A stretch of DNA of 64,000 nt, from contig OZ244197.1 of NCBI GenBank assembly GCA_965216785.1, positions 832,001 through 896,000 on the forward strand, given 5' to 3'. Numbering within the stretch: the stretch's first letter is position 1; each line of letters opens with the position of its first letter. The DNA is from Thermodesulfobacteriota bacterium (GTDB taxonomy: Bacteria; Desulfobacterota_D; UBA1144; Nemesobacterales; UBA2774). A program made the translations under genes and the position numbers. Positions 29,952 to 49,453 of this stretch are shown in pieces. The notes beneath the pieces were generated by a model that made no database searches, was not told the DNA's origin, and was given only the letters and a program-made list of their open reading frames with translations.

Positions 29952-30779
29952 TTATACCACGCCCCTATCGAGCGAGCGGTACTGTATAGCTTCGGATATA
30001 TGGTTTGACTTGACGTTGTCCGAGTCCTCAAGGTCGGCAATGGTTCGGGCTACTTTTAATATTCTGTCATAAGCCCTTGCGCTGAGGCCCAGCTTATCTA
30101 TCGCGGTCTCGAGCAGCTTACTGCCGGTGTCATTTGGTTTTGCGTATTTTTTCACCTGCGTTGGGCTCATCTGCGAGTTTGAATGTATCGGAGAGCCCTT
30201 GAAGCGCATCATCTGTATCTCCCTCGCTCTGTTTACCCGGTCCTTAATATCTGAGGATGTCTCGCCTCCCGCCTCGTCCGAAAGCTCCTTATATCTAACA
30301 GGCGGCACCTCTACGTGAATATCAATCCTATCCAGAAGCGGCCCGGAGACCTTGGAGCGGTATTTGTGTATCTGAAGAGGGTTGCACGAGCATTCCTTCT
30401 GCGGGTCCCCATGGTACCCGCACGGGCAGGGGTTCATAGCGGCAACGAGCATAAAGCTTGCGGGATATGTGAGCGACGTGACGGCTCTTGATATCGTGAC
30501 CATCCCGTCCTCAAGGGGCTGGCGCATAACTTCAAGTACGTTCTTTTTAAACTCGGGGAGCTCGTCCAGAAACAGCACGCCGTTGTGCGCGAGGCTCACC
30601 TCCCCTGGTTTTGGAATCGCGCCCCCGCCGATAAGTCCCGCGTCGCTCACCGTGTGGTGAGGCGAGCGATAAGGTCTCGTAGCGTAGAGTGACGAATGAC
30701 TAGGCAGGAGCCCGGTCACGGAGTATATCTTGGTTGTCTCGAGTGCCTCTTCAAATGTCATGTCCGGCAGTATCGTGGG
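29952..30779 (-). pseudogene. comM: comM (YifB Mg-chelatase-like ATPase), 3' half, split by island insertion
   Basis: [57 protein letters not shown]; the frame extends upstream as PTILPD to the junction. Confidence 0.95.
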
Positions 30780-32442
30780 TACTATTCTGATTTAAATTAG
30801 TAATTTTTCCTTCATCAATAAACCTCTGCAAAATCTCTGGATTCCAATTTAGTTTGAATTTAATTTTAGGACCTCCAGGTCCGTCTATCTCATTGTCCTC
30901 CTGATAATCTATAACAACTTTATCCTTAAGCATAGATTCAACCAGTATTTTTTTGTCGTTTCCGTTCAATTTCTTTATTTGCTTTGCTAGTTTTCTTAAT
31001 TCTTTTTTGTTATTGAGTAAAAAATCAGTAATATCGTTCTGTCTGTCAATTATGGATATGAGTTCTTCATATTGTGATTTAGTCTCATGTAACATGCCTT
31101 TAAGCTCCATTATTTCATCCTGGTTATTGCGTAATTTATCTTTTAGCTCGTTGATGTTTAAGTCATCATCCTCCATACATTTAAAAATGTTACTTCTAGC
31201 TCTATTCTTTTTATTTAACTCATTTTCCAACCTGTCCATTGTTTCCTTTAACTGATCCACTTTACTCTTCTGTTTTTCTGAATCAAACAAGAATTTGAAA
31301 GCGATGTCAGGATTTAATGAAAAATTTACCAAGATGTCAGCCCAAATTGCGTTTTCAATAGGCTTAGTTTTAATAAAAGGTAAACTGCACTTCTTCTTTC
31401 GTCCTGACGCAAGTAAGTTCTTTTTACTTGTACCAGCCCAATAACAAACATAATAACGGGGTACTGAACCATCTTTTCTAACATTACCTACTCTTGGTTT
31501 TACTCTACCACCGCATCTTCCACAAATTAGAACATCGCGTATTGTTAAGTCTTCTGTTTTAGTAGAACGTTTAGATTTACGTTTATTAAATTCTGTCTGT
31601 TTTTGTATAAGGTCCCATTGATTTTTAGAGATCAATGGTATTATTGGATAACTTATATGTTCGGAGCTAGGTTTTCTTTTTTTTGTTCTTTTCGTACCTA
31701 CACCTCTAGCACTATCTTCATACAAATATTGATTAACCACGTAATTTCCATAATATGCTGGATTTTTTAGCACATAGCCTATTGTTGTGCCGCTCCAAAA
31801 TGCACGTTTACATTTGATCCCTTGCTCTTTGAGCTTAATACTTATGTCCTGAAATGACATTTTTTGATTCAAGTACATATCAACAAGCAAATGATAGACT
31901 TTTGCTTCTTCTTTATTAATTTCTAGTTTTTGTGTTTCTTTATTCCAGTAATAGGCAAACGGAGTTCTGCCATTAAAAATGCGTAGTTCTCTCCACCTCA
32001 CCATCTTGCTCTCATTCATTTGTTCCCTTATAGTGTCACGTTCCAATTCAGCAAATGATGCTAAAATTGTTGCCATCGCTTTTCCAGTATTTGTAGTTGG
32101 GTCGAAGTTTTCTTTTATACTTACAATTGATATTCCGTGCTCTTGAAGTTCATGAAATAGGTTCAAGTATTCTCTAGTATTGCGTGCAAATCTTGATAAC
32201 CTTGTGAATATTACAACTTCAAACTTTCCTTGCTTAGCATCCTCAATCAATTTTTTAAAATCAGTTCGATGCTCAATTTTAGCACCTGACATACCTTCGT
32301 CAGAATATATTTTTTTCAATTCCCAACCTTTGTTCTTAGCAAATTCAGTTATCTGCTCTCTTTGTGTTGAAAGACTTTCACCTTCTTTTACTTGTTTGCT
32401 AGTGGATACCCTTGTATAGCCAACTACTTTCTTTATATGCAT
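30751..32442 (-). CDS. Large serine recombinase (integrase)
   Basis: Catalytic YTRVST, DEGMSG, SRFAR; recombinase domain; Zn ribbon CGRCG..YYVC..C; coiled coil; ORF reads through the att junction. Confidence 0.95.
30762..30795. other. att junction, integrase-proximal: comM arm / GG core / element arm
   Basis: Core GG 30778-30779 followed by TACTATTCTGAT 30780-30791, the inverted copy of the arm at 62952-62963. Confidence 0.9.
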
Positions 32443-32832
32443 ATAATATCTTCCTCTATTGCATGGGATTGGTTTTACTCACCAAAAATAAAAAACCAAT
32501 CGACCTGACAATGCTACAATTAGCAGCACCTATCTTATTATACCGATGTGGTGGACTTTTTACGGGGAGTTATTTTTCGGGAAAATCTTGAAAGTTTATA
32601 ATACTTCAATAATAACAAGCAGATACAAGGGCAAAAATTTTTTCTGGATTCCCATTTTCGGATGGCAATATGTCAGCATACAACACTATTTGATATAAAA
32701 TGTAGATTTTCTATATAATAATGAAGTATTCAAGAGACAAAACAAGAAAAAGTTATCCCTTCATTAGTAAAATAAAGCTCAGACGTAAATCTATGCTTAG
32801 TCGCTAAGGATTAGTATTTATTATTTGCAGTA

Positions 32833-32909
32833 ACTTTTAATAGGGCATAACGCTTTACGGTCGGATCACAATACCACTCAATTCTATCCTTTTTTGCTAG
32901 CGTTAAGAA
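32833..32909 (+). repeat. Repeat site A (putative recombination site)
   Basis: GGGCATAA-CGCTTTACG-N7-CACAATACCACTC with downstream homology to site B (CTAGCRTTAAGAA). Confidence 0.6.
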
Positions 32910-33002
32910 TATATCTATAAAAACACAAACTGATGATACTCAGAAGGCGAATATGTAGTCGAAGATATCCGCCTCCTTTATGCTTAACTATAAATACTAC
33001 TA

Positions 33003-34436
33003 TCACCTGACTTTTTCGACATCTGGAAGTGTCCAGGTTTTATCGAACAGCGCCTTCTCAGGCCCATAAAGACGGAAGATTAAAAAGAAGTCCTCGCCTG
33101 TAGGTAGCCAGTTTGATTCCATTCCCTCAGGCGCCTTTGGTCCAAAATATATATCAATTGTCCCATCCTCATTCTGCTTTAGATCAGCTTTTTGGACTGA
33201 ACCTAGTCCGACCTTGCTTGCATTATTAATGAAGCCTTTGGTTTTCATGCTATAGACGATAGCTGACCAGAATTGGGCTGCAGGCACATCTTTTGGGACC
33301 TTAAGACGATAGAGAGAAGATCCGTCAAACAGCTCGCCTGATTTGTCTCGCAGACCCATTAGATAGAAACTCCCTTTTCCTAAACGTTTTGGCAAGAAGG
33401 TAGCCCAGAAGTATATCCCTCCTGCCCGCTTATCCAGTAACAACTCGTCCTTAGTTACCATCGGAAACCCTGCTTCAACTTGTGCTTTAGGGAAATTTGG
33501 TGCTTGCCATTTAACATCTGACCACCAATTTACAAGTGATTTGCCAGGTGTTGTGAAGTAACTCTGCATCAAATCATAACCAAGTGTGATAGACTGCTCC
33601 AGAGCTTTTTTTGTTTCTTCATCAGGCTTAAACTCTGTACCTTTTTGAATTCCAATAGTTGGCAGCATACCCATCATTACCAGATCTTTCTCCTGAACTG
33701 GTTCTTCGTTAACAACAGTGGCTAGGTCCTCAAAGAAGCTGATATCGTATTGTGGGAGAGTGTTCCATGTTTTGGGAAATGCATTTATATAGCGGGTTGG
33801 CTCAGGATTCTCCGCCTCTGATAGTGGATAGGCCTTAAGTTTCTTGGCATATGTTACAGCCTCTTCAAGTGTACCTCCGTTAACTGCAACTGGGCGAAGT
33901 CCAACATACAAATTGAATGTCTTGGGCCTTTGGACCAGATATCCTTCAGGCACCTCTCCCTCGTAATCCGGAGGTAAAAAGAGATACTTGCCGCCTTTAC
34001 CCTTATCATCTCCTTCAGGTCCGACATCTGTCACAGGCACTTGCCATGCATCAATGACGCTTCCGAAATAGATAACCTTTTCTGATGCGGGTGGGACCTC
34101 AAGTATTACAGGGCCGTCCTTGGTGTTTAACACCGAAATTACATAGGGCACGTCGTTATTAGCAGTGAGAAATCCGTGTCTCGAAACCATAGGCTCAGAG
34201 AAATAAATGATATCGTTGAATGTAAAACCTAGCTGAGCTTCTGCGCTTTTTCGTAAATCCATCATGCTTACAGCCGGCATACCCCAGATAACAGCCTGTG
34301 TGCCGCGCTGGACAGCTTGCTTGTGCTCAAGCGATTCATCAGCTCCGTTTTGTGCCTGAGCCCGTCCCAGCTCCACAACTAGCATTATTGCTAAAATCAA
34401 AGTGAGACATGTAACCATCTGTGCTAATTTTTTCAT
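33003..34436 (-). CDS. Secreted DUF1254/DUF1214 protein
   Basis: Signal peptide; LTANNDVPY, GPVILEVP, DKGKGGKYLFLPP, FWSAIVY, NWLPT..FRLYGP. Confidence 0.88.
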   Translation of the reverse strand: MKKLAQMVTCLTLILAIMLVVELGRAQAQNGADESLEHKQAVQRGTQAVIWGMPAVSMMDLRKSAEAQLGFTFNDIIYFSEPMVSRHGFLTANNDVPYVISVLNTKDGPVILEVPPASEKVIYFGSVIDAWQVPVTDVGPEGDDKGKGGKYLFLPPDYEGEVPEGYLVQRPKTFNLYVGLRPVAVNGGTLEEAVTYAKKLKAYPLSEAENPEPTRYINAFPKTWNTLPQYDISFFEDLATVVNEEPVQEKDLVMMGMLPTIGIQKGTEFKPDEETKKALEQSITLGYDLMQSYFTTPGKSLVNWWSDVKWQAPNFPKAQVEAGFPMVTKDELLLDKRAGGIYFWATFLPKRLGKGSFYLMGLRDKSGELFDGSSLYRLKVPKDVPAAQFWSAIVYSMKTKGFINNASKVGLGSVQKADLKQNEDGTIDIYFGPKAPEGMESNWLPTGEDFFLIFRLYGPEKALFDKTWTLPDVEKVR

Positions 34437-34632
34437 TGTTGCTCTCCATGTATAAATTGATAAGCGAAATCATACCTAAAAGTTTAGTCTGATACTATTT
34501 AATATTATAAGTTTCGTGGTCTTAAGAAGAAGTAAAGCAACTGATTAAATGCAAATTCAATTTTATGACATAAAGGCGAAATTGAGCTCCATTTTTTTAC
34601 TATCTGCTGGTAATAACCAAATAAAGACAGCA

Positions 34633-34711
34633 ACTTAAACTAGAGTGCATCACCCTTACGTTATGCCCACAATACCACTCTTTTATACACCTTCTTAACT
34701 AGCATTAAGAA
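34633..34711 (+). repeat. Repeat site B
   Basis: ACTTAAACTAGAG-TGCATCA-CCCTTACG-TTATGCC-CACAATACCACTC. Confidence 0.7.
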
Positions 34712-34973
34712 CACATATAGACACGGAAACCGTACTTGACAAAAGAGGTATAGTACAGAAATACAAACTGAACAATTGGGTTGTATATTACAACAGGAAT
34801 TACCTTCACTCGGCTCTTGGGTTCCGCACAACAGTTCAGGCAGAAGTGGAGTATCAAAAGAATACAGATGGAAATCTGTTAAATGCTGCTTGACAAAGAA
34901 GTTCATTATTATTTGGTATTTTTCCCGACTGTATTATATTTCTTCTTTATATCTCGTTTTAAAGGAGGAGTAA

Positions 34974-35885
34974 ATGAGACTAGTCCTATTGATAATATCT
35001 TCATTATTACTGTCTGTGGGTGTTTCAAATGCTCAGGATGTGGAATTGTTTAGTGTCGCAAGGAATGAATGTGTTGAGGGAATCCCCCCACTTGGTAGTT
35101 CACTTTTTAGAGTTGACCCGGATACTGCAGAAACTGAAATTATAGGTCCTATCGGTTTTGGTGGTGTAACTGGTTTGGCATTTCTGCGGGGACGTATACT
35201 AGTGGGTAGCTCTAGTGGAGGAGTTGATCCTAGAACCGCCACTCTTATAAGGATTAATCCTGAAACTGGGCAAGGGTCAATAATAGGTGTAATAGGTAAC
35301 GAATCTGTAGATGGAGAATGCGGTAGAGCTCCTGATCTAACTTATGAAGCAGCTACTAACACTTTATTTGCGTCAGGTGATGTTTGTGATGGGGGTGACT
35401 CTTTACAAACCGTAAATCCAATCACAGGTCAGGGTACAGTTATTGGAAACTTTGACGGTGGCATTGGCAGTCCGGGAAATGGACTTGCAATAAGTGATAC
35501 CGGTGTACTATTCCATTCAGGTAGTGGTGTACTGTCCAACATTAATCGCAATACTGGTGAGGGGACATTTATTGCCAATCTTACGCTTGTTGGCAGGGTT
35601 TTTGTAAATGCACTTGCTTTCCATCCGGTTACTGGAGAGCTTTACGGAACTACAGTGGATTTATCAGATCCTCCAACTGAAAGATCATCTGCTCTTGTAA
35701 AGATAAACACAGAAACAGGTGTAACTACTGTAGTCGGGGACTTACCTAACTGTTCCGATGGTCTGATATTTTTTCAACAACCCGAACCCATCCCGACCCT
35801 ATCCGAATGGGGACTTATAGCCATGGCGGGTGTGCTGGGAATAATAGGTCTACTAGCTCTCCGAAGAAGAAAGGTAACAGCTTAA
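34974..35885 (+). CDS. Secreted beta-propeller-like protein with IPTL-CTERM sorting signal
   Basis: Signal peptide; repeated (I/V)(N/D)PxTG..IG units; C-terminal IPTLSEWGLIAMAGVLGIIGLLALRRRK. Confidence 0.85.
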   Translation: MRLVLLIISSLLLSVGVSNAQDVELFSVARNECVEGIPPLGSSLFRVDPDTAETEIIGPIGFGGVTGLAFLRGRILVGSSSGGVDPRTATLIRINPETGQGSIIGVIGNESVDGECGRAPDLTYEAATNTLFASGDVCDGGDSLQTVNPITGQGTVIGNFDGGIGSPGNGLAISDTGVLFHSGSGVLSNINRNTGEGTFIANLTLVGRVFVNALAFHPVTGELYGTTVDLSDPPTERSSALVKINTETGVTTVVGDLPNCSDGLIFFQQPEPIPTLSEWGLIAMAGVLGIIGLLALRRRKVTA

Positions 35886-35921
35886 TCAGAGACTAACTGA
35901 TACAGTAAATTAATACACTAA

Positions 35922-35944
35922 GGGGAGCTTTTATACTGCTCCCC
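35922..35944 (+). terminator. Hairpin after IPTL-CTERM gene 1
   Basis: GGGGAGC-N9-GCTCCCC. Confidence 0.55.
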
Positions 35945-36005
35945 ATTAAGAAGTAAGTATAGTTAAGTTGGTAAATTATCCGTAATACACAGTGGGAGAG
36001 CAGCC

Positions 36006-36179
36006 ATGAAACGAAGAAGATGGGACTCTAAAACCAAGACTAAGATAGTACTCGAAGGTTTATCTGGCAGACCCGTAACAGAGATTTGCAACGAGTACGG
36101 AATACATCAGAACCAATACTACCTCTGGCGTGACAAGTTTTTATCTGATGCTCATAACGCTCCTCCTTATTTCTTTTAA
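36006..36179 (+). pseudogene. Truncated IS3-family OrfA-like transposase fragment
   Basis: MKRRRWDSKTKTKIVLEGLSGRPVTEICNEYGIHQNQYYLWRDKFL HTH_Tnp_1-like sequence, ending abruptly; no OrfB follows. Confidence 0.75.
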
Positions 36180-36187
36180 TAATGGTG

Positions 36188-37123
36188 CTATTCAAATTCC
36201 ACCGGAGATTGTGGTTTGGTATTTACGCGAAGTTTAAATATGTCAGGGCGTGAATAATGGCCTACCACGTCAAGTGCTCGTTTTGCCTTAGCTGCACTGT
36301 TACAGTCAACATCATAATAGATAACCCCTTCTTCTTTTCGCATAGGGCCAACAACTATATCACCACCCGGGCCGATAACAATAGAATCACCTTGGTTTAT
36401 CCATTCGTTATTATCAGGGTATAGCGTGGATTTCTCAGGGAAATCATTTGGGATATCTTTGCCCTTCATAACATTACCACAACCCACTACCCAGCAACAG
36501 CCTTCTCGTGCGATGTGTTGTAAGGTTCCAATCCACGCATCTCCACTATCATATGTTGGTGCAATATATATCTCTACACCCTGTGAATAGAGTGCGTACC
36601 TTGCCAATGGCATGTAATTTTCCCAGCATATTAGTGTTCCTATTCGTCCAACAGGAGTATCAACAACTTTTAAACCAGAGGCATCACCAAACCCCCAAAT
36701 CATCCTTTCCGGATTGGTAGGCATCAATTTGCGATGCCTATTTAACAGTGACCCATCAGAGCCAATAACAATGGTAGTGTTATAAATAGTTGCACGACTT
36801 AGGTTACTGTCCCTTTCGTCCATACCACATACAACTGTTACATTACATTTTCGAGCAGCTTCATAGAGGACTGATAAGTCGTCACTTTTCAAACTAACGG
36901 CATTTTCCAAGAGCCTAGAGTATAGTTCTTCTGATAATTTCCCATCTTTCCCCGGCCTTAAACGCCATATCCACGCTGGATAACCAGGGATAAAAGCTTC
37001 TGTGAATATTACAAGTTCAGCGCCTTTAGAGGCCGCCTCATTAACTGAATTAACAGCACTAGCTATTGTTTCTTCCTTATTCAAGAATACAGGTGCTTTT
37101 TGAACAATTGCTAACCTAGCCAT
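36188..37123 (-). CDS. Nitrilase (carbon-nitrogen hydrolase family)
   Basis: Catalytic E (FTEAFIPGYP), K (HRKLMPT) and C (ICWENYMP); DVVGHYSRPD. Confidence 0.92.
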   Translation of the reverse strand: MARLAIVQKAPVFLNKEETIASAVNSVNEAASKGAELVIFTEAFIPGYPAWIWRLRPGKDGKLSEELYSRLLENAVSLKSDDLSVLYEAARKCNVTVVCGMDERDSNLSRATIYNTTIVIGSDGSLLNRHRKLMPTNPERMIWGFGDASGLKVVDTPVGRIGTLICWENYMPLARYALYSQGVEIYIAPTYDSGDAWIGTLQHIAREGCCWVVGCGNVMKGKDIPNDFPEKSTLYPDNNEWINQGDSIVIGPGGDIVVGPMRKEEGVIYYDVDCNSAAKAKRALDVVGHYSRPDIFKLRVNTKPQSPVEFE

Positions 37124-37274
37124 TGTTGATACTCTCCTCCCTTTTTAATCTAAGTCTGGTTAATATACATAACCCTGTTAATGTTTGTACAGTATGGGCA
37201 TTGTCTCTTACCCCTTGGGGGGCATCGGCTCCCTTTTGTGTTTGCAACCATTCCACCTTAAACCAAGCTTGACA

Positions 37275-37307
37275 AAAGGGGTGCAGTACAGTTACTTGCA
37301 CCCCTTT
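37275..37307. terminator. Bidirectional-looking hairpin at the end of the B-C module
   Basis: AAAGGGGTGCA-N11-TGCACCCCTTT. Confidence 0.55.
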
Positions 37308-37385
37308 AACGGGACTATAGAATAAGTTAGATTTTTAACAGGAAAAGGAACGATAGCACTCTCATTAAAGTCAACAATCACTGGG

Positions 37386-37449
37386 ACTTAATATAGAGCC
37401 GAACAGGCTTACGTTATGTTTACAAAACCACTCATTTTTACCCCTTCTT
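37386..37449 (+). repeat. Repeat site C
   Basis: ACTTAATATAGAG-CCGAACA-GGCTTACG-TTATGTT-TACAAAACCACTCATT. Confidence 0.7.
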
Positions 37450-37681
37450 CTCCATTGTTCTGCTGCAGCTCTGAAATACTAAATGAGTTTCCTAGAGATC
37501 GTAGGTTCAGGTTTTTATCACTACAATTCAAATTAAGCGCTTTATACTGCTCCCCATTAAGAATCTAGTAGGATTAAGATATTTAAAGAGTGCTTGACCG
37601 AAGAATAGCGGACAACTATTAGTTTCTTTCTACTTATAGTATAATAAAGCCCACAATTTCTTATTTAGGAGGACAGAGCAG

Positions 37682-38743
37682 ATGGCAAATAAGCTGAGCA
37701 AAATACCTGGTTGTAAGGTTATCTGTAAACTGCTGGTTGTTATCGCTGTGCTTGCGGGAACCTTGCTGGCGACCCAGGGTGCGATGGCAGCCGTAAAGAA
37801 GGTCTACTGGACTGACCGTAACAACGGGACGCTTTCGGTAACGGATGTTATCAACGGCCAGACCCAAGTCTTGGCGCAAAACTTTTCACGTCTCCAGGAC
37901 GTCGATCTTGACACTAACACGGGCATTCTGTATTTCGCCGATTGGGGACCCGTTGGTCCGCCTGGAAACGAGGGTTCGATAAATCGGGTTAACAGTGACG
38001 GGACCGGTCTTGCAACCGTGTTTAATACGGGGGACGCGGTGCACCAGCTAGCGTTGGATCAGGCCTATCAACTCATCTACTTCACAAGGGCGGTAAGCTA
38101 CGATGGCCGCGAGGTTTCCGTCGTGGATTATACTGGCGGTAACTACACGATCTTACTCACAGGAGCTGGTGGCGGGCCGGGATGGTTCTACTCGGGTCTT
38201 GCCGTAGACCTCGGGAACAACTTGCTCTACTGGGGCGACCCCGGCGTCATGTCAGGTCCCCCGGACGGTTCAGTGAACAGGATGACCACCGCCGGGGTGG
38301 CGCAAACTCAGCTAACACCCCACGTCGACGGGCGAGGTCGGGGCTACGCGCTCGATCCGGTTACCCAGACAATCTTCTTAACCTCACACGATTTCCAGTC
38401 GCCTGGGACAGGGGGGGCGCTCTTCTCCTATGACATTGGGAACAACATTGAGACGCTTCTCATAAACGATCCCAACACCGGTTACTGGGACATCGAAATC
38501 GACCCGATCAGTCAGCGAATCTGGTGGACCGATTACGGGCGCGGGGAGATCCGAAGTGCCAGGTTCGACGGCTCTGATGTGCGGGTTGAGCTGTCCAACT
38601 TGACGAACCCCTACGGACTGGCACTGGAGCTTATCCAGCCTACCCCCACCCCCACTTTATCCGAATGGGGACTTATAGCCATGGCAGGAGTTTTGGGGAT
38701 AATAGGCTTACTGGCTCTACGAAAAAGAAAGGTAACAGCTTAA
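37682..38743 (+). CDS. Secreted YWTD/LDL-receptor-like beta-propeller with IPTL-CTERM signal
   Basis: VYWTD, LYFAD, LYWGD and IWWTD repeats; C-terminal PTLSEWGLIAMAGVLGIIGLLALRKRK. Confidence 0.88.
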   Translation: MANKLSKIPGCKVICKLLVVIAVLAGTLLATQGAMAAVKKVYWTDRNNGTLSVTDVINGQTQVLAQNFSRLQDVDLDTNTGILYFADWGPVGPPGNEGSINRVNSDGTGLATVFNTGDAVHQLALDQAYQLIYFTRAVSYDGREVSVVDYTGGNYTILLTGAGGGPGWFYSGLAVDLGNNLLYWGDPGVMSGPPDGSVNRMTTAGVAQTQLTPHVDGRGRGYALDPVTQTIFLTSHDFQSPGTGGALFSYDIGNNIETLLINDPNTGYWDIEIDPISQRIWWTDYGRGEIRSARFDGSDVRVELSNLTNPYGLALELIQPTPTPTLSEWGLIAMAGVLGIIGLLALRKRKVTA

Positions 38744-38780
38744 CAAGAGACTAACTGTAACAGTAAAATTGAATACCAAA

Positions 38781-38803
38781 GGGAGCTACGGCTCCCCTTT
38801 TTT
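38781..38803 (+). terminator. Rho-independent terminator after IPTL-CTERM gene 2
   Basis: GGGAGC-TACG-GCTCCC followed by a T run. Confidence 0.8.
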
Positions 38804-38852
38804 GTTCCAAAATACTCAATAACTGTAGCTTATTAGAACACCCGGATTAAGT

Positions 38853-38891
38853 CCACATCCCGCTTACGTTATGCTCACAATACCACTCATT
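38853..38891 (+). repeat. Repeat site D, recombinase-proximal
   Basis: CCACATCC-CGCTTACG-TTATGCT-CACAATACCACTCATT, ~45 bp beyond the tyrosine recombinase stop. Confidence 0.7.
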
Positions 38892-38934
38892 ATTACAAAT
38901 TCAATTGTAACTATTGGATATTTTGCTTTATTTT

Positions 38935-39561
38935 TTACTCTCTGATCTTATTAGCCAGATTACCATTTTCTGATGGCAAAACATCAGCATAAAGTACAGT
39001 CATGCTTATTTTGCTATGTCCAAGTTGTTTCTGAACATACCTTAAATTGTTCGTAGCATGAAGCAAAAAGGTAGCATAAGTGTGACGAGCACAGTGGATT
39101 GAATAATGTGAAGGTAAATGAGATTCTTCGATTGCCCTCTTGAATGATTTCATAAGAGTTATTGCTGCGGAGTGTTTTCCATTTCTACCCATAAATAACG
39201 GACTGTCATTATCAACTTCTTCGCCCATTGTTTTCTTTTTCCAAGCTATAAATCTCTTTAAATGGTTTACAAGTTCTTTGTCCAAATAAACATCCCTTTT
39301 TTTACCTCTCTTTCCATTTCGTACAATTAAATATGGATCTTTAGTTGTTAATTCAATATCACCGATTTTTAAGTTAGCAATCTCTGCTACACGCAATCCG
39401 CTAAAAAGTGCTAAATCCACTAACATGTAGCGTTTTATCCATGTTTCACGACCGTGTAATAAATCCAACTCCGACTTATCTTTACAGGTTTTTAACAGTT
39501 TTGATCTTTGATCAGAGTCTAAAATCTTTTCTCTATGGATGTTGTAAGTAGTAGAATTCAT
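38935..39561 (-). CDS. Short (catalytic-domain-only) tyrosine recombinase
   Basis: Complete R-K-H-R-H-Y set: SGLRVAE, NGKRGK, HCARH, LGH, TVLY; 208 aa with no N-terminal core-binding domain. Confidence 0.92.
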   Translation of the reverse strand: MNSTTYNIHREKILDSDQRSKLLKTCKDKSELDLLHGRETWIKRYMLVDLALFSGLRVAEIANLKIGDIELTTKDPYLIVRNGKRGKKRDVYLDKELVNHLKRFIAWKKKTMGEEVDNDSPLFMGRNGKHSAAITLMKSFKRAIEESHLPSHYSIHCARHTYATFLLHATNNLRYVQKQLGHSKISMTVLYADVLPSENGNLANKIRE

Positions 39562-39747
39562 GTTGTCGCCCTATATTTTATAGCCTATGGGTAATACTAT
39601 ATAGTCTAATACGTTTAGGACAACGGTATTTTATAGGTTATTTATGTTCTCTATAAAATATTCTGAATTCTAGATATTAAACAATACCAAAGGAAGAGAT
39701 TAAATCTACTTGGGCAGGAAATATGCAAGAAACATTTTCGACGTACA

Positions 39748-40516
39748 TTATTCGTTCTCTATTTTTTCCCAGTCATAGGTAAATTCTACATTTTCAAGAA
39801 ACTTCAGCGCTTTACGCCTCAAGCTCAGGGTCACTGTTTTGACTAGTAGAGATATGATAAAAAATAACTCGATAGAACATAGCTCCTTTACCTATCCAAC
39901 TCTTGTACGGACCTTCTATAACATTAATTTCAATATATTCATAAAAATACCGTTCACTCGGGTTTAATGTAGATTCTAAGAATCTTATTGACGAACCGCC
40001 CTTCCCGAGCCAAATTGGTTTAGATGAGGAATAGTCAGTCTTTGATTTAACACATATATCTTTAATCCCATTTACCACTTCTAAGTTGTATCGATAGTCT
40101 TCAATACCGAACTTATTGTCCTTAAGAGTTGTATTTTGGACGGATTCCAGTTCTTTTTCTATTTTATCAAACAAATATTTATCGCTTAGCTTATCGTTCC
40201 AAGATCCTATATAACTATCGAAACCGATGAAGTAAACATCATCCCCGTCACCGCTAGCAAATTTAGCTTCATTTTCACACTTATCATTTAAAGCATCCAG
40301 GGAATAACTCCTCTTATGCCACTCACCATCTTCGGGAAGCACTATTGAATAACAATTAAGCTCAATCTTGGTAGACGGATTTTCGATCTCAACATATTTT
40401 GCCGAACAGCTGAGAATAAATAAAAAGAATGGTAAGAAGCCGATAAAGAACTTGTAGCTTGGCAGTATTTCTCTATTTAATATACGCCGATCAATGTTCA
40501 TTTGTTCTTTCGCCAT
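39748..40516 (-). pseudogene. Lipoprotein of unknown function with a +1 frameshift near the 3' end; paralog of 60803-61555
   Basis: ILSC lipobox; stop after DPELEA; next frame continues KALKFLENVEFTYDWEKIENE, matching the paralog C-terminus. Confidence 0.7.
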
Positions 40517-40594
40517 AAGTCAGAGTCTATGTCCTATGAATAATTCCAATTGTTGGTACATAATATTCAATTGCACTGCATAAGTGGCAGGTCA

Positions 40595-41839
40595 TTACTC
40601 TGATTGTGAAAACACCTGAATGCGATTATTAAACGAATCTACTACGTATATATTGTTCATACTGTCCACTACTATGCCAGCTGGAGAATCAAACTGCCCA
40701 ATCCCATTGCCGTTTATACCTGCCTGGCATGGAGTATCTTCAGTGGTACAAACTTGAAACTCATTAGTACCATCATCTACCCCCCACCCAAACATAAAAA
40801 GAAAATTAGCTGAAGAATCAAACACCTGGATGCGATGTCGTCTCGTATCTGTTACGTATAAATTATTCATACCGTCTACCGCTATGTCATCAGGATCAAA
40901 AAACTCTCCAGGCCCATCACCGAATGAACCAAACATAAAAAGGAAACTACCTTCAGAATCAAACACCTGGGTGCGATTATTAAACGAATCCACTACGTAA
41001 ATATTCTTGATACTGTCTACCGCAATGCCAAAAGGGAGATTAAACTGCCCTGCTCCACCACCTTCTAAACCTGCCTGACATGGAGTATCTTCAGTGGTAC
41101 AAACTTGAAACTCATCAGTACCATCATCTACTCCCCACCCAAACATAAAAAGAAAATTCCCCGCGGAATCAAACACCTGGACGCGGTGATTAGGAAAGTC
41201 TGAAACGTATATATTATTCGAATTGTCTAATGTTATACCAGCAGAACCATCAAACTGCCCTGCTCCACCGCCAACTGAACCTGCCTGGCAAGGAGCACTT
41301 TCACTGGTACAAATTTGAAACTCATCGGTATCATCATCTACACGCCACCCAAACATAAAAAGAAAATTCCCCGCGGAATCAAACACCTGGACGCGGTGAT
41401 TAGTTGGATCTGAAACGTATATATTATTCATACTGTCTACTGCTAAGTCATTAGGGAAATGTAACTGCCCTGCTCCACCACCTTCTAAACCTGCCTGACA
41501 TGGAGTATCTTCAGTGGTACAAACTTGAAACTCATCAGTACCATCATCTACCCCCCACCCAAACATAAAAAGAAAATTCCCCGCGGAATCAAACACCTGG
41601 ACGCGGTGATTTATGTTATCTGCAATGTATATATTATTCATACTATCTAATGCCATGCCGCCGCTGAGTGAACTAAATATGGATTCAAAAAGCACGGGAG
41701 ATCTGTCTCCGTCTCCATCACCTTCTCCATTTTCGATGTCTCCATTTCCTCCGCTACTCTGACTACATCCACCGATATTACCAAGAGCAAATACGACAAG
41801 CAATAAAGAAACTACTATATGTCTGGTTATATACATCAT
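40595..41839 (-). CDS. NHL-repeat lipoprotein with Cys-containing loop inserts
   Basis: AGGAGG RBS before 41839; IGGC lipobox; six NHL blades (IAVDSxNNIYVxD..NHRVQVFD). Confidence 0.88.
   Translation of the reverse strand: MMYITRHIVVSLLLVVFALGNIGGCSQSSGGNGDIENGEGDGDGDRSPVLFESIFSSLSGGMALDSMNNIYIADNINHRVQVFDSAGNFLFMFGWGVDDGTDEFQVCTTEDTPCQAGLEGGGAGQLHFPNDLAVDSMNNIYVSDPTNHRVQVFDSAGNFLFMFGWRVDDDTDEFQICTSESAPCQAGSVGGGAGQFDGSAGITLDNSNNIYVSDFPNHRVQVFDSAGNFLFMFGWGVDDGTDEFQVCTTEDTPCQAGLEGGGAGQFNLPFGIAVDSIKNIYVVDSFNNRTQVFDSEGSFLFMFGSFGDGPGEFFDPDDIAVDGMNNLYVTDTRRHRIQVFDSSANFLFMFGWGVDDGTNEFQVCTTEDTPCQAGINGNGIGQFDSPAGIVVDSMNNIYVVDSFNNRIQVFSQSE
41043..41611. repeat. 210-bp-period intragenic tandem repeats
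   Basis: 41043-41191 and 41463-41611 differ at one base; more diverged copies near 41253-41401 and 40693-40830. Confidence 0.9.
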
Positions 41840-41896
41840 ACACCTCCTAATAGCCTCAATCTCATCAGATGTAAATAATAACAAAGAAAAACCTAG

Positions 41897-42622
41897 CTAG
41901 TCTGAGCCAACCGAAAGATTTTCCGCAAAATTAAAAATATTCTTTTTACCGATATTAAGGCTTTTGACTCCTTTAGCTTTCATCTTATCTATAATCATAT
42001 TACGAGCCTCGTTAAGGTCTGCAGTAACAAATGGCACAACATCTTCACAGTCACCACTTAGGTCAATTCCAAATGGGATATCGGCAACAACTAAGTCGTT
42101 AACTTCAAGCATTTCTCCGTTCTCCAGCCTAACGCATTCTCCACTAGCATCAGAAAATACGTCCAATATCAATGCTGTAAAAATATCGCACATATTCTCT
42201 CCTTGAGCTGAAGCACCTAAACCAATGACAGCCCCAGAATCTGGTATGTCCGACAAAGTTAAGGCAACATTCTCTCCATCAGAGGTTAAACCAATCAGGA
42301 CAGCATTATTTGCATCAACAAAAAAGTATCCTGTATCACTAAAGTCTGTATTAAGTGGTGGAGCTTGACATTGAGTCGGTGGTGAATTTGTAGGTGGCGG
42401 TACAATACCACATTCGGGAATACTATTACACATCCTCCCAATTTGCAACTGTCCGCCGAGACCGTCACATTCAGCTTTATTAGTACCGTCCAAGCAGGCG
42501 TTCTCTCCTATTACACAGCAGCCTTCATTTGTTCCACCACCACTGCTTCCGCATCCCCCCACAGTTGCAAGTCCTATAAAAACAAACAAAACAGCAATTC
42601 CCAATAATCTTAGATAACTTAT
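41897..42622 (-). CDS. Cys-rich lipoprotein of unknown function (start uncertain)
   Basis: VGGC lipobox; GCC..C..C..C..C module; Pro-rich linker; the RBS precedes an in-frame ATA at 42622. Confidence 0.7.
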   Translation of the reverse strand: MSYLRLLGIAVLFVFIGLATVGGCGSSGGGTNEGCCVIGENACLDGTNKAECDGLGGQLQIGRMCNSIPECGIVPPPTNSPPTQCQAPPLNTDFSDTGYFFVDANNAVLIGLTSDGENVALTLSDIPDSGAVIGLGASAQGENMCDIFTALILDVFSDASGECVRLENGEMLEVNDLVVADIPFGIDLSGDCEDVVPFVTADLNEARNMIIDKMKAKGVKSLNIGKKNIFNFAENLSVGSD

Positions 42623-42702
42623 GATAACCTCCCCAATACCTTAGTAATGTCTAAATATTATTGCATAAGTCATACCAGAACTATTTGTACAGTAATTAAG
42701 GT

Positions 42703-44472
42703 TTAAGGAGGGGCATCGCATGGAGTCCCGTCAGCTAATCGACATGGTTCAAACATAAATACATCAGTCGCAACAGAACTTAAATTACCGAGGTTATCTT
42801 CCGCTTGTACAGTCCATATCCAGTCATTGAGGTTACTATCTATTACAAAGGAGTTGCAGCTCAATTCAGTAAAATTTGAATCCTGCACAAAAGTATCGAT
42901 AATAGGAAAAATAGCACCAATGCGCATTGCGAAAAGGTGGTAGCCTCTTATTCCGTTTGGCGAAGTGGCATCTGTCCAATCAAAAAATAAGCGGAAGCCA
43001 AACCCACGTGTCTGGTCAAACGGGCAACCGATATTCGGATTGTTTTGTTGAATGATATCGTTGTTAATAGGAGTCAATAGAATAGGGGTTGTTACGGTTG
43101 GTGCTGGTGCATTATCTGATAGCACTTTCATTAAATCTTCTATCATCTCTCGAATTGCCATTTGTGCCTCATCAGTGGGTAATGGTGGAGGTTCTGAATC
43201 TTGGATTTCGTAAGCCCCAATATCACAAGCTACTCCATTTGGACGGGGGAAGCCACGTTGATCTTCATTTATTAACAAACCCTGTGGATCAAGGCATCCC
43301 GAGGGATCTCCCATATCTATTGCAGGACTTCCTTCAAGTAGTGCGTGTGTATTTGTTGGACCTCCATTGGCAGCAAGTGTGTCCAACAGCGGGTCAGTAA
43401 AAGGCTTATCACCCTCTTCAATGAGGTCGCATGTTCCATCACTATCAATATTATAGCCATTTGAAAATATTACACCGAAATCTCCGTCACAATCTGTACC
43501 AAATAAATTGTTTGCGATAATAGTATTACTAAGTTCCAGGTTGCCATTACTAAAGATACCGCTACCTTCTGTACCCGCAGAGTTACCGTATATAGTGCTG
43601 TTTGATATAAAAGAATTTCTAGAAAATATAAAGATGCCACCTCCCTGAGTGTCTGAAGAATTTCCTGATACCGTGCTGTTTGTCATATCTATCGTGCTTC
43701 TGAATGTAAAAATACCTCCCCCATCAGAGCTACTAGTATTTCCTGATATTGTGCTTTTGTTTATTTTTACTGTATTAAAGTCAGCGGACACTCCACCTCC
43801 AAAAGTTGCTGAGTTTCCTGATATGGTACTGTCGTTAATTTCTTGGGGACTAGTTAACATTACATATGAAATGGCCCCTCCGTGGCTGCCTGCAGAGTTT
43901 CCGGACAATGTGCTGTTGTTAACTATTAATGTACCTTTGTTGTTATGAATAGCTCCACCAGATAAGAGTGCAGAATTCCCAAACAACATACTGTTGTTGA
44001 TTTCTAATCTGGCTAAAAAGCAACAGTCTATATAAATACCACCACCGTTGCTGTTATTTCCACTAGCACAACCATTGCTTACTGATATATCGTTCAGTAT
44101 TAGGTCTCCGGTTTGGGACACATGAAAGATACGGAATTCAACGCCCACCCCATCACAAGGAATATTGCTCGCACTTCCTACGATATTTGATCCGTTACCG
44201 TTGATTGATAGCTCGCTCGTTATGCTTGGAAGACCATTAACTCCATCAGCTGGAAATGGAATCCTGCCATCATTAGCTGGCGATAAGGTATAGGTGGAAC
44301 CGTTAGCAAGATTGATAGTATCTACTTCACCATTAGAGTTAGATGTAATAATGGCATCTATTAGTGCACTAACATCACCAGGTGGAATATTGAATACTGC
44401 GGAATGTGATGAAACTGGGAGTATCTGTAAGAATAAGATGAAGGCTATGACTAATATTGTTAAGTTTTTCAT
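42703..44472 (-). CDS. Secreted parallel beta-helix protein with choice-of-anchor Q domain
   Basis: NSTxSGNSA..GGGI repeats; ANGGPTNTHALLEGSPAID..DQRGFPR..CDIGAYE. Confidence 0.82.
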   Translation of the reverse strand: MKNLTILVIAFILFLQILPVSSHSAVFNIPPGDVSALIDAIITSNSNGEVDTINLANGSTYTLSPANDGRIPFPADGVNGLPSITSELSINGNGSNIVGSASNIPCDGVGVEFRIFHVSQTGDLILNDISVSNGCASGNNSNGGGIYIDCCFLARLEINNSMLFGNSALLSGGAIHNNKGTLIVNNSTLSGNSAGSHGGAISYVMLTSPQEINDSTISGNSATFGGGVSADFNTVKINKSTISGNTSSSDGGGIFTFRSTIDMTNSTVSGNSSDTQGGGIFIFSRNSFISNSTIYGNSAGTEGSGIFSNGNLELSNTIIANNLFGTDCDGDFGVIFSNGYNIDSDGTCDLIEEGDKPFTDPLLDTLAANGGPTNTHALLEGSPAIDMGDPSGCLDPQGLLINEDQRGFPRPNGVACDIGAYEIQDSEPPPLPTDEAQMAIREMIEDLMKVLSDNAPAPTVTTPILLTPINNDIIQQNNPNIGCPFDQTRGFGFRLFFDWTDATSPNGIRGYHLFAMRIGAIFPIIDTFVQDSNFTELSCNSFVIDSNLNDWIWTVQAEDNLGNLSSVATDVFMFEPCRLADGTPCDAPP

Positions 44473-44753
44473 TTATCCTCTCACCCTGAAATAAATTCAC
44501 TTATACAGTAAGTCAAATAGCCTTTTGCTTATTCCACTCTAGTATACTGCACCCAAATTGTCAAGCATTAGTTACCTTGGAGTACTAGATGTTAAACAAT
44601 ACGAAAATAAAGATTAACAATTGCTGGGTAGGAGATCAGTTATAGAGAGGTTTGATATAATGGGGAGCAGTATAAGCAGTATTACTACACCAAAAACGAC
44701 CATATCTTATAGATTATTTATATTCTCTATAAAATTTTCTGTATTCTGGATTT

Positions 44754-45275
44754 CTACTGCACTAATAAAACTAAGTTGCATGAAACATCTGTCCTACGAT
44801 CCATCTCTCTATCTAATATTTGAGAATGGGTCATTCTTCCGTCTTCTGACGAACCATCAATGCTAAATATCTGCCCGAGTCCATAGTTGTCGGGACTTGA
44901 TATACTTATAATTCTGCATCCAATTTGTCTCCAAAAGAACGAGCCACCGATTTCCATATTTAATTCACTTCCTTCAAAGACCAAGCCACCGAATGCCGTA
45001 CTTTCTCCTGTCCCATCAGCGTAAATAGAGAGCTCGTATTCTTCGTCAAAATCGTTAGTACAACTCCAGAATGAGTTTGCTTCTTGAGCATTGGGTCCGT
45101 TCGTAATATCAACAATCTTGAAGTCTGTTAAATCACTGCAACGAGGAGGGGGGTCAGGACAAAATCCTCTACAGTCATCTCCCCCACAACCACCTATTAC
45201 ACCAAAAGCTATTATTAGGATGAGAACTGCAAAAGATATATCAAATCTATTCATACTACTCTCATTGTAACGCAA
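44754..45275 (-). CDS. Hypothetical lipoprotein
   Basis: IGGC lipobox; Cys-rich N-terminus. Confidence 0.65.
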   Translation of the reverse strand: MRYNESSMNRFDISFAVLILIIAFGVIGGCGGDDCRGFCPDPPPRCSDLTDFKIVDITNGPNAQEANSFWSCTNDFDEEYELSIYADGTGESTAFGGLVFEGSELNMEIGGSFFWRQIGCRIISISSPDNYGLGQIFSIDGSSEDGRMTHSQILDREMDRRTDVSCNLVLLVQ

Positions 45276-45277
45276 TG

Positions 45278-46300
45278 CTAATACACTGTAATTGAATAAC
45301 CTCTTTCATTTAAGCATTCTCGGTAATATTTATTCGACTTCTTGAAAAACTTAACGCCTCCTGGCTTTGACTTAACATTATCATATGTAAGCCTCATACA
45401 TTCATCCCTGTCTTTCTGCCACTTAGTTTTTTCATACTTATCCTTTGTAGGATGTACGTTTACAAATGGATTTAATTTCCCCGACTCGCATATTGAATAA
45501 TAGCTGCCATCTGAGTAATAGCCCCCTTCTACATGCTCGGCAATATCACCGACAGGATGTCCTTTCTCTATGCATTCAAATTTGCAAGCCCGTGACTTTT
45601 CATGGCATGATAGAAGCCCCTTAAAATATTTTTGCCTAAAATCCTCGAGTGGACCGCCACAAGTGTTTGAATATTTAGAATCACATTCCTCAATACACAT
45701 TCTTTCATCAATACCTATGTATTCGACCACATAAATACCTTCATATCCGAATTGATTTTCATAGATTCCGTATGTTCCAACTAATCCTGTTGCGAACTCA
45801 TCTCCAAGGTGGAACTCAGGATAATACGGCTCACACCCCTCACCCTCAACAAAACCAGAAACCGCTCCTAGGGTAGAAGAGATAGCTGCTGACTCCAGGC
45901 TTATTGCTCCAGAATAAAGAATAGCAGCAGGAGGAGCTAGAATAACCGCAGATGTTACACCGACCGTAAGTATAGTAATCATGAGAGCGTTTTTCCCAGC
46001 ACTAACAGTCTCTTGTTTCATCCCCGTTATATCGCTTAAGAGAACTTTTATATTCTCTCCGAATATGGCTTCATCTGTAACCTCTGTAACCTCAAATTCT
46101 GTCTCTTGGTTATCCTTGGTAACTATTTTTACCGTATCACCGGGTTCAATTACGGACTGGATGTTCACAGGGTCAGGGTAAACTGCGGTATGGGATGCAC
46201 AGGAGGCTAATATTAAAAGAAAAGCTGCTAAGATAGTTGCACCAGTCCGCATTAATTCACTATCTTTATATTGATTAGCGCAGTCCAAAGTTTTCTTCAT
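45278..46300 (-). CDS. Hypothetical lipoprotein (likely start 46252); paralog of 46297-47070
   Basis: LASC lipobox; shared PGDxxKIVTKDNQExEFEV domain; hydrophobic segment; Cys-rich C-terminus. Confidence 0.7.
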   Translation of the reverse strand: MKKTLDCANQYKDSELMRTGATILAAFLLILASCASHTAVYPDPVNIQSVIEPGDTVKIVTKDNQETEFEVTEVTDEAIFGENIKVLLSDITGMKQETVSAGKNALMITILTVGVTSAVILAPPAAILYSGAISLESAAISSTLGAVSGFVEGEGCEPYYPEFHLGDEFATGLVGTYGIYENQFGYEGIYVVEYIGIDERMCIEECDSKYSNTCGGPLEDFRQKYFKGLLSCHEKSRACKFECIEKGHPVGDIAEHVEGGYYSDGSYYSICESGKLNPFVNVHPTKDKYEKTKWQKDRDECMRLTYDNVKSKPGGVKFFKKSNKYYRECLNERGYSITVY

Positions 46301-47070
46301 TGGTTATTTTCGTTATAACATTTACGTATACATGACTCGAGAGGATGGCATAGTTCCATACCTTCAAGTTTAGCACGACCGTAACTAGCACGACCGTAAT
46401 ATTGTTGCATTGTATTATCCGTATTACTCACTCTATTATTACAATTGTGATTTTTATCGCACTCTTGGGCACATATTTCTTCCTCTATAGTTCTTTCTTT
46501 ATAAGTGTAGAAGTCCGGATGGTATTCATAACTGGTGCCGGTAAATATCAACAATTCTCCAGCCTGTTCAGCAGTAGACCCTAGAGTATCTGATAAAGCT
46601 TCGTATTTTGAGCCTCCATACGGCGCACCAAGTACACCTAGTGCCAGATAACCAGCTAAACTAAATGTAAATATAGAAATTAAAAGTGTTTCTTCCCCGC
46701 CACTTGCAGTCTCTTCCTCTATGTCTGTTATATCTGTAATAGGAACCTTTATATTCTCTCCGATTATATATTCGTCGTTAACCTCAATAACCTCAAATTC
46801 AACTTCCTGGTTATCCTTGGTAACTATTTTTATTTTATCACCGGGTTGTATCTCTGATTGTATGTTCGCTGGGTATGGATGAATTGTTTTGTTTGAGGTA
46901 CACGAGGCTATAAGAAAAATTATTATTAAAAAATGAATATAGAGTAATTTACGTATTCCACACCCTCCAATGGTGCCTAGTGTAACAAATATTAATAGAA
47001 TAAGTTTAAGTTTTTTCATACTATCATTACCCTTATTAAGGCGTAAAAGGCTGCCTTTCACCTTCTCCAA
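46297..47070 (-). CDS. Hypothetical lipoprotein with two tandem signal peptides (likely start 47019)
   Basis: MKKLKL..IGGC followed immediately by IRKLL..IASC; same domain as 45278-46300. Confidence 0.7.
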   Translation of the reverse strand: MEKVKGSLLRLNKGNDSMKKLKLILLIFVTLGTIGGCGIRKLLYIHFLIIIFLIASCTSNKTIHPYPANIQSEIQPGDKIKIVTKDNQEVEFEVIEVNDEYIIGENIKVPITDITDIEEETASGGEETLLISIFTFSLAGYLALGVLGAPYGGSKYEALSDTLGSTAEQAGELLIFTGTSYEYHPDFYTYKERTIEEEICAQECDKNHNCNNRVSNTDNTMQQYYGRASYGRAKLEGMELCHPLESCIRKCYNENNQ

Positions 47071-47428
47071 TTTTGTTATATTCAGGCTGTTCTATTCCAA
47101 CATGTTCATATTCAATTATTTCCATTTGAGGACTGCCTAATGCATTGGTATCGCCATCTTCATATCTTTCTATTCTCTCATCGCATAAAGCATCATCATC
47201 TGCCCACTTTTTATCAAAGTAATACTTTTCTGTACACAAATCTAAAGGCGGTAGTCCTTGTTTTTCTCTCTCAATATTCATTTCATTATATTGAGCCATA
47301 AATCTTTCCTTACCTGCTCTAGTTTCAGCTTTTTGTGCTTCAATAGCTGTACCTGTTGCTATCATTGCTGCAGATAAACATCCTGTATTTAGGATACAAA
47401 TTATTAAAAGTCCAATCAGTTTTTTCAT
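47036..47428 (-). CDS. Hypothetical lipoprotein; paralog of 47519-47902
   Basis: NTGC lipobox; NIEREKxGLPPLDLCTEKY motif. Confidence 0.75.
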   Translation of the reverse strand: MKKLIGLLIICILNTGCLSAAMIATGTAIEAQKAETRAGKERFMAQYNEMNIEREKQGLPPLDLCTEKYYFDKKWADDDALCDERIERYEDGDTNALGSPQMEIIEYEHVGIEQPEYNKIGEGERQPFTP

Positions 47429-47518
47429 AACCTAAGACCTCCAGTTTGTTAGTAATCCAGTAAAACTAATCTCATTAATGCCAGAAGGCACTATAAATAA
47501 GTCGTAAGGTTTCAATTA

Positions 47519-47902: not shown

Positions 47903-47944
47903 TAGCCTCTCCTTTTCAGTCTATGAATTGCCTATACGGTGCTA

Positions 47945-48991: not shown

Positions 48992-49000
48992 AAATTCATA

Positions 49001-49111
49001 TTAATCTTTCATTCTATTTACTACTTCTAATGTAAAGAAGAAAAGCGCTACAAGTACAGGACATAAACCGTAAATACAAACATCTATAATCTCACTAAAC
49101 CACGCATCCAT
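49001..49111 (-). CDS. Putative 36-aa single-TM small protein
   Basis: GAGGTG RBS; MDAWFSEIIDVCIYGLCPVLVALFFFTLEVVNRMKD. Confidence 0.45.
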   Translation of the reverse strand: MDAWFSEIIDVCIYGLCPVLVALFFFTLEVVNRMKD

Positions 49112-49149
49112 AATCACACCTCGCTCCTGTAATCTATTTTTAAAGACCC

Positions 49150-49323: not shown

Positions 49324-49366
49324 TTCTTACCTCACTTTAAGTCGTATTAAATTTCCCCTTCAAATA

Positions 49367-49436: not shown

Positions 49437-49453
49437 AAAAATCAGTTATACTC

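What the first reader, a model, noticed from the sequence alone, without database searches (positions are those of the whole stretch)
30751..30800. Recombination rewrites the integrase C-terminus
Seen: the integrase ORF crosses its own att site. Integrated, it ends ...[13 protein letters not shown] (563 aa, tail taken from an alternate comM frame). On the excised circle it would end ...NQNST-YYSDVIKLLFLSQNNKPA (573 aa, stop at 62907-62909). No RDF gene is evident. Known analogy: some mycobacteriophages place attP inside a gene so that integration changes a C-terminal degradation tag. Inference: the tail swap may control integrase stability or directionality.
Basis: partly seen in the sequence, partly recalled or inferred. 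Interest (0 to 1): 0.7.

Follow-up and report, generated by a model that had tools for sequence, protein, structure and literature searches.

The report
Integrase gene crosses its attachment site
A 32-kb mobile island sits inside the comM gene, and its serine integrase gene runs across the island's own recombination site, so excision would replace the enzyme's last 8 residues with an 18-residue hydrophobic tail; most relatives share this already-described layout, and the swap is likely a tolerated by-product rather than a proven switch.

Summary
A large serine recombinase (30751-32442, minus strand) reads through the crossover GG (30778-30779). Integrated, it has 563 aa with 8 residues from an alternate comM frame; on the circle it would have 573 aa. 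Empty, intact comM is assembled in two samples of one other study. The layout is clade-wide: the ORF crosses att in 21 of 22 comM-adjacent relative loci. Integrated tails are arbitrary, 1-162 aa. Circle tails are 9-20 aa, hydrophobic, with motif xY[SF][ND]LIxLL. That motif is mostly the att arm itself, and protein-level selection beyond it is not significant (p about 0.15). The swap lies about 20 residues past the end of the solved integrase fold, with pLDDT under 50 in both forms. Circle tails share no degradation-tag-like end. The arrangement is already described for streptococcal rumA-targeting serine integrases and for phage Mx8 (PMC4701971), and this scan noted it on other DNA. Best reading: tolerated by-product (55%). 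Mx8-like activity switch: 28%. Degron: 8%.

The parts
30751..32442 (-). Large serine recombinase ORF, integrated form (563 aa)
   Evidence: fold matches SPbeta, Bxb1, phiC31 and LI integrases
30778..30779 (.). Crossover dinucleotide GG (CC on minus) at the integrase-side junction, inside codon T555
   Evidence: empty-site contig leaves the window sequence after 30779
30780..30812 (-). Integrase-side att arm, double-coded as the last conserved codons of the integrase ([10 protein letters not shown])
30751..30777 (-). Integrated-state tail HDTAGHDI plus stop, read from an alternate frame of the comM 3' half
62931..62963 (-). Far att arm, inverted repeat of the integrase-side arm
62964..62965 (.). 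Crossover dinucleotide GG at the far junction
62907..62963 (-). Circle-state tail coding sequence (18 aa, YYSDVIKLLFLSQNNKPA) plus TAG; joined to the integrase only after excision (predicted)
   Evidence: similar tails in 12 relatives and 4 natural attP-type proteins
30780..62963 (.). Whole integrated element, 32,184 bp
62964..63667 (-). comM 5' half (to about residue 233, includes Walker A)
29952..30779 (-). comM 3' half
62117..62830 (-). Rep-like ORF (PF23343 REP_ORF2-G2P, 237 aa), 76 bp after the circle-state stop and co-oriented with the integrase on the circle

Best explanation
A large serine integrase gene has its att crossover inside codon 555, so integration into comM replaces a predicted 18-residue circle-form tail with 8 residues from an alternate comM frame, and this swap is likely a tolerated by-product of one att arm doubling as the gene's last codons, with both forms likely active. 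Shown: the geometry, the empty site, the clade-wide layout, arbitrary integrated tails, and hydrophobic 9-20 aa circle tails whose first 6 codons are the att arm. Predicted by structure models: the junction lies about 20 residues beyond the end of the known integrase fold, in a flexible region. Inferred: the enzyme tolerates almost any tail, so the element can insert into comM in either orientation, into a peroxiredoxin-like gene or elsewhere without losing its recombinase. Excision would then be controlled by something else (expression level, or an unrecognised or host RDF).
For: Integrated tails are unconstrained: 75 of 78 parsed homolog tails are non-attP-type, 1-162 aa, median 9 (a few may be contig-end truncations). 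They come from comM sense, comM antisense (L014, L042) and other targets. Structural alignment of the natural attP-form protein P0121 (577 aa) with solved integrases ends at model residues 543-547 = SPbeta 530-535, LI 452-454, Bxb1 479-482, phiC31 584-588 (Z 17.2, rmsd 8.1, 395 aligned for 9dxh_A), while its att junction is near residue 566. AlphaFold gives pLDDT under 50 for residues 552-563 of the integrated form and 562-577 of P0121. In 12 far arms, 12 of positions 2-17 are invariant, including third codon positions 3, 6, 9 and 15, while first and second positions 8, 10 and 13 vary (4 of the 12 arms were found by a pattern that fixes these bases). That is DNA-level constraint. Codon-phase test beyond the arm: p = 0.15 over 7 lineages, 0.14-0.32 with one sequence per lineage. 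Circle tail lengths (9-20) match what local stop-codon frequency predicts (8-17 further codons). In L040 the integrase stops 23 nt before att, yet its never-translated far arm still reads HYFNLIKYLF.
Against: The ORF crosses att in 21 of 22 loci, down to about 42% identity, although a stop just before the arm would be easy to gain. All 13 circle tails stay open for at least 9 codons, whereas a perfect mirror of the integrase-side arm would stop at codon 5-8 in 5 of 9 cases. The pattern is amphipathic: codons 8, 9 and 11 are hydrophobic in 12/13, 12/13 and 9/10, and codons 7 and 13 in 1/13 and 0/10. pN is below pS in tail codons 8-14 in 6 of 6 non-independent pairs of 4 close relatives, resting on 2 synonymous changes each; over codons 8-18 pN exceeds pS in 2 of 6. 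G072 differs from the window by an in-frame 3-nt indel in the tail. The tail is modelled as a helix (568-576). In Mx8 the analogous swap lowers activity (PMC4701971, passage).
Confidence: 0.55

Rival explanations
1. Mx8-like built-in switch. The circle-form amphipathic helix docks on the zinc-ribbon/coiled-coil region or on a partner subunit and promotes integration. Its loss on integration lowers activity, stabilising the island, or relaxes directionality so that the integrated form can excise without an RDF.
For: Clade-wide retention of read-through (21 of 22). Hydrophobic fraction 0.61 in attP-type tails against 0.23 in integrated tails. Helix predicted. Weak pN below pS. No shared small ORF among 8 elements. 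Precedents: Mx8's 112-to-13-residue swap gives a less active enzyme, and F532 near the SPbeta integrase C-terminus matters for directionality (PMC11722253, passages).
Against: The region matching SPbeta 530-535 lies upstream of att and is kept in both forms. No confident packing of the tail (pLDDT under 50). Selection test not significant. Tail length varies from 9 to 20 aa. The L040/P0033 lineage has lost read-through. Some serine recombinases excise without RDF and without any known tail swap (TndX; PMC5704250, passage).
Confidence: 0.28
2. Degron swap. The hydrophobic circle tail is a protease tag that shortens the life of the circle-made integrase; integration removes it.
For: Circle tails are hydrophobic. 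Exposed hydrophobic C-termini can be protease substrates (recalled knowledge). Mycobacteriophage precedent for a repressor.
Against: No shared terminal residues among 13 tails. The four closest end in polar or basic residues (NNKPA, KHKK, RNTK, PLRK), unlike the host tmRNA tag AENDYALAA. Integrated tails end in any residue. A less stable integrase on the circle would work against integration.
Confidence: 0.08
3. What matters is the transcript, not the peptide. On the circle the integrase gene is followed after 76 bp by a rep-like gene with a strong ribosome-binding site. Integrated, it is followed by the comM 3' half, and the rep gene falls behind the comM 5' half. Recombination would rewire expression, and the tail is incidental.
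For: Geometry. No sigma-70-like promoter or terminator found in 62700-63000. An in-frame comM ATG at 30761 overlaps the integrase stop.
Against: The rep gene is shared only with G072 among 7 other full elements. Elements sit in both orientations and in other genes. No RNA data were available.
Confidence: 0.09

Closest known systems
Streptococcal ICE/dICE serine integrases targeting rumA (PMC4701971; passages read)
   Same: Serine integrase with the att site inside its own gene; integration exchanges 3' ends with the target gene, changes frame, and gives a different C-terminus and length in the excised form; function untested there as well.
   Different: Different clade, hosts (relatives' records name Thermodesulfobacteriota / Ca. 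Dadabacteria) and targets (mostly comM, both orientations, plus others). No conjugation genes among the 29 ORFs scanned. Sequence relatedness to rumA integrases was not tested.
Myxococcus phage Mx8 IntP/IntX (seen through PMC6070905 and PMC4701971 passages; the primary papers are not held)
   Same: attP within the integrase gene; integration rewrites the C-terminus.
   Different: Tyrosine integrase; 112 residues replaced by 13, with measured loss of activity. Here 18 are replaced by 8, outside the folded core.
Mg-chelatase/comM-targeting large serine recombinases (PMC10083194; passages read)
   Same: LSR domain architecture; the target gene family is hit by 12.4% of predicted site-specific LSRs.
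   Different: The passages shown to me (12 of 19) do not mention att inside the LSR gene; supplements not read.
Mycobacteriophage integration-dependent immunity, e.g. BPs (PMC9262239; passages read)
   Same: attP inside a coding sequence; integration changes a C-terminus; no evident RDF.
   Different: There the gene is the repressor, the integrase is tyrosine-type, and an ssrA-like LAA tag is removed. None of these holds here.
Archaeal suicidal integrases, SSV1/pTN3/pT26-2 (PMC8371274; passages read)
   Same: att site within the integrase gene.
   Different: Tyrosine recombinases split into two inactive fragments; here 555 of 573 residues and all known domains stay in one ORF.

Membership tests
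Large serine recombinase (serine integrase) | Resolvase + Recombinase (PF07508) + zinc-ribbon domain with inserted coiled coil; catalytic Ser | tested here: met
   Pfam; invariant R11-V12-S13 and four Cys; helices 388-466 and fold match to SPbeta integrase, E 5e-26
Large serine recombinase (serine integrase) | Short att sites: inverted arms around a 2-bp crossover; recombination restores the target | tested here: met
Large serine recombinase (serine integrase) | Excision needs an RDF | tested here: inconclusive
   no small ORF shared among 8 full elements; RDFs have no common signature
Integrases with att inside their own gene (Mx8 / rumA-ICE kind) | Crossover inside the integrase ORF; excised and integrated forms differ in C-terminus and length | tested here: met
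   natural attP-type proteins P0031, P0036, P0121, P0245 and a natural attP in L034
Integrases with att inside their own gene (Mx8 / rumA-ICE kind) | The two forms differ in activity (shown for Mx8 only) | not testable with these tools
   needs biochemistry
Mycobacteriophage integration-dependent immunity | attP in the repressor gene; tyrosine integrase; tRNA attB | tested here: not met
   att is in a serine integrase gene and the target is comM
Mycobacteriophage integration-dependent immunity | Circle-form protein ends in an ssrA-like tag | tested here: not met
   13 circle tails share no LAA-like end; host tag AENDYALAA
Archaeal suicidal integrases | [quoted passage not shown] | tested here: not met
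   all domains lie in residues 6-545, upstream of the junction at 555

The most novel reading that the evidence does not exclude
A widespread clade of RDF-less serine integrases encodes its directionality switch in its own attP. The far att arm is double-coded as a short amphipathic helix that exists only in the circle-made enzyme and locks it in integration mode, while the tail-less integrated form excises or falls quiet. Recombination itself would toggle the recombinase.
Probability: 0.2. Interest if true: 0.72.

Novelty: new member of a known kind. Interest (0 to 1): 0.36.

Why it matters
If the tail changes activity, it would be a self-toggling serine integrase: a cis-encoded alternative to an RDF, useful for engineered one-way or reversible integration, and a direct test of a guess left open for the rumA integrases. 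Even if neutral, there is a practical point. Nearly all database proteins of this clade (75 of 78 parsed tails) are the integrated isoform, so integrases mined from genomes for genome engineering carry host-derived C-termini rather than the ones the integrating circle would make.

Tried and rejected
Circle junction in reads: only assembled contigs were available. No attP joint was seen in X1, X3 or X4 (one sample, probably the source), which does not show absence. No RNA holder was listed. Short low-depth pieces of the integrase in X5 were not interpreted. More far ends: five metagenome records could not be searched. A pattern scan of viral contigs gave 12 loci, none with an integrase or comM hit, treated as chance. 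A 2-mismatch pattern search in G080, G085, G087 and G089 gave matches no more convincing than the control, so no far end was assigned; G072's was found. G021 and G022 carry far-arm-like sites but no integrase match (0 of 2, 92% and 83% complete); G023 was not searched. These four arms are counted as one lineage and cannot be tied to an integrase. Two pattern hits (L192, L194) were dropped as chance or unassignable, as were arm-like hits in L068 and L072. Plasmid collection: no match. The circle-form protein of this window was not folded; the natural attP-form relative P0121 was used instead, with only 4 of 42 alignment rows carrying such a tail, so low pLDDT is weak evidence. No complex prediction was run because the tail is under 30 residues. 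Rejected: that the similarity of L040/P0033's internal tail to circle tails shows a fixed functional tail; it is encoded by a hairpin-like insertion. The Mx8 primary papers are not held and Abe 2021 on the SprA extreme C-terminus was seen only as a reference line. Seven literature searches listed no paper on this clade or an isoform test for a serine integrase; most subscription papers are not covered and no supplements were read.

Full report
Observation. The ORF 30751-32442 (minus strand) encodes a 563-aa large serine recombinase with Resolvase, Recombinase and zinc-ribbon domains. It sits at one end of a 32,184-bp element (30780-62963) that splits comM. Joining the halves restores a 509-aa ComM, and the crossover is the dinucleotide GG at 30778-30779 / 62964-62965, flanked on the circle by inverted arms. 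The crossover falls in codon T555. Integrated, 8 residues follow from an alternate comM frame. On the circle, 18 residues encoded at 62963-62910 would follow, giving 573 aa. An intact comM with exactly this junction is assembled in runs X5 and X6, two samples of one study, so the island is a real insertion. The circle junction was not seen, but only contigs were available.

The layout is clade-wide. A search gave 296 homologs at E up to 1e-20, of which the best 120 were listed; a profile search added 150 rows. Conservation runs to a motif EGKI..(L)(N/D)(K/Q)N(S/G) and ends there; that motif is the integrase-side att arm. Of 39 non-redundant loci examined, 22 had a recognisable comM junction; in 21 of these the ORF crosses it, with 4-48 residues added, and one (L040) stops 23 nt before. 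Several of the 22 are near-duplicates. Insertions occur in both orientations in comM and in other genes, including a peroxiredoxin-like gene (that name is my reading of the sequence, not a library hit). Of 121 proteins whose match reached the C-terminus, 78 were parsed: 75 have arbitrary tails of 1-162 aa (median 9) and 3 have attP-type tails; a fourth (P0245) was among the 43 not parsed. L034 holds a natural attP palindrome, so un-integrated forms of the clade exist.

What the circle tail looks like. Thirteen far ends were read. All give 9-20 aa, hydrophobic tails with the motif xY[SFY][NDK][LIV]IxLL. Its first six codons are the far att arm: 12 of positions 2-17 are invariant in 12 arms, including silent third positions, while first and second positions vary (4 of the 12 were found with a pattern that fixes these bases). 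That is DNA-level constraint. Beyond the arm there is an amphipathic pattern (codons 8, 9 and 11 hydrophobic in 12/13, 12/13 and 9/10; codons 7 and 13 in 1/13 and 0/10), and T is enriched at second positions (43 against 26 and 24 of 68 codons). After grouping into 7 lineages this is not significant (p = 0.15). Among four close relatives pN is below pS for codons 8-14 in 6 of 6 non-independent pairs, on very few sites, and not consistently over codons 8-18. Tail lengths fit local stop-codon frequency. In L040, where the tail can no longer be translated, the far arm still reads like the others. In favour of function, no far arm has the early stop that a perfect mirror of the integrase arm would give in 5 of 9 cases. 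Protein-level selection on the tail is therefore inconclusive.

Structure. AlphaFold models the integrated form confidently (mean pLDDT 85) up to a last helix at 535-543; residues 552-563 fall below 50. The natural attP-form relative P0121 gets a tail helix (568-576), also below 50 (few alignment rows carry this tail). Structural alignment of that model with solved integrases ends at residues 543-547, matching SPbeta 530-535, LI 452-454, Bxb1 479-482 and phiC31 584-588. The swap thus lies about 20 residues past the known fold, and the region matching SPbeta's directionality-relevant F532 is present in both forms. This check was prompted by earlier scan notes that called similar tails DNA-binding; for this clade I find no support for that.

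Degron and RDF. The circle tails share no terminal motif and do not resemble the host tmRNA tag AENDYALAA. In the mycobacteriophage case the gene is the repressor and the tag is ssrA-like (PMC9262239, passages). No small ORF is shared among 8 complete elements, which is weak evidence because RDFs are diverse, and TndX excises without one (PMC5704250, passage).

Mechanism. Most likely (0.55) the att arm is double-coded in the flexible end of the gene, the enzyme tolerates whatever follows, and both forms work. An Mx8-like switch, in which the circle-only helix promotes integration or restrains excision, gets 0.28. A degron gets 0.08 and transcript rewiring (integrase-rep on the circle) 0.09. 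All functional steps are inferred; none was tested.

Comparison with known systems. [quoted passage not shown] Archaeal suicidal integrases split the gene outright (PMC8371274, passages). Seven searches listed no paper on this clade or any isoform comparison for a serine integrase, within the limits of an open-access library; supplements were not read. Eight earlier notes of this scan describe the same layout in other genomes (unchecked AI notes, not counted as support), and a sequence look-up found none for this protein.

Verdict. A real, precisely described and conserved feature, and a new member of a known kind. Its function is open and cheaply testable, but present evidence leans toward a tolerated by-product. 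Interest 0.36.

Noticed in passing
window 32855, 34656, 37409, 38864 and ORF 38935-39561 (-): Four copies of a 41-77-nt repeat lie between cassette-like genes (DUF1254/1214, two IPTL-CTERM proteins, a carbon-nitrogen hydrolase) next to a 208-aa tyrosine recombinase. That recombinase is also in the G072 and G084 elements (78-83% identity) and as a fragment in G088. My pattern for the repeat gave no convincing copy in the 7 other elements.
   Followed up: partly
window 30751-30761: An in-frame comM ATG (Met240) lies 8 nt before the integrated integrase's stop codon, so a 269-aa ComM C-terminal fragment lacking Walker A could be translationally coupled to the integrase.
   Followed up: no
window 62117-62909: A rep-like gene (PF23343) follows the circle-state stop after 76 bp, with two predicted hairpins and a strong ribosome-binding site; a homolog is in the G072 element only. 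It suggests a replicating circle.
   Followed up: partly
window 49454-60399: Low-GC cargo cluster: 2181-aa type I polyketide synthase, sulfotransferase, MMPL transporter and TetR regulator.
   Followed up: no
G072:C5:243069-243130 and about 260080-260810: The far arm is preceded by a second arm-like sequence and a tRNA-like 3' end, and the comM 5' half lies about 17 kb further on in the opposite orientation: a rearranged locus.
   Followed up: partly
L040:11670-11760; L062:11650-11770: L040 (and protein P0033) has a hairpin-like insertion that stops the integrase before att; L062 has a duplicated att arm inside the ORF.
   Followed up: partly
G021:C27, G022:C215, G022:C227, G023:C146: Far-arm-like sites, two behind degenerate comM-like sequence, in genomes where no integrase of this clade was found (G021 and G022 searched): possibly non-autonomous or decayed elements.
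   Followed up: partly
G000:C1:1151417-1151764 (-): A second, distantly related large serine recombinase (614-aa open frame) elsewhere in the same genome.
   Followed up: no
window 39748-40424 and 60803-61555: Two paralogous ORFs of about 240 aa with no Pfam match, in inverted orientation (75-82% DNA similarity).
   Followed up: no
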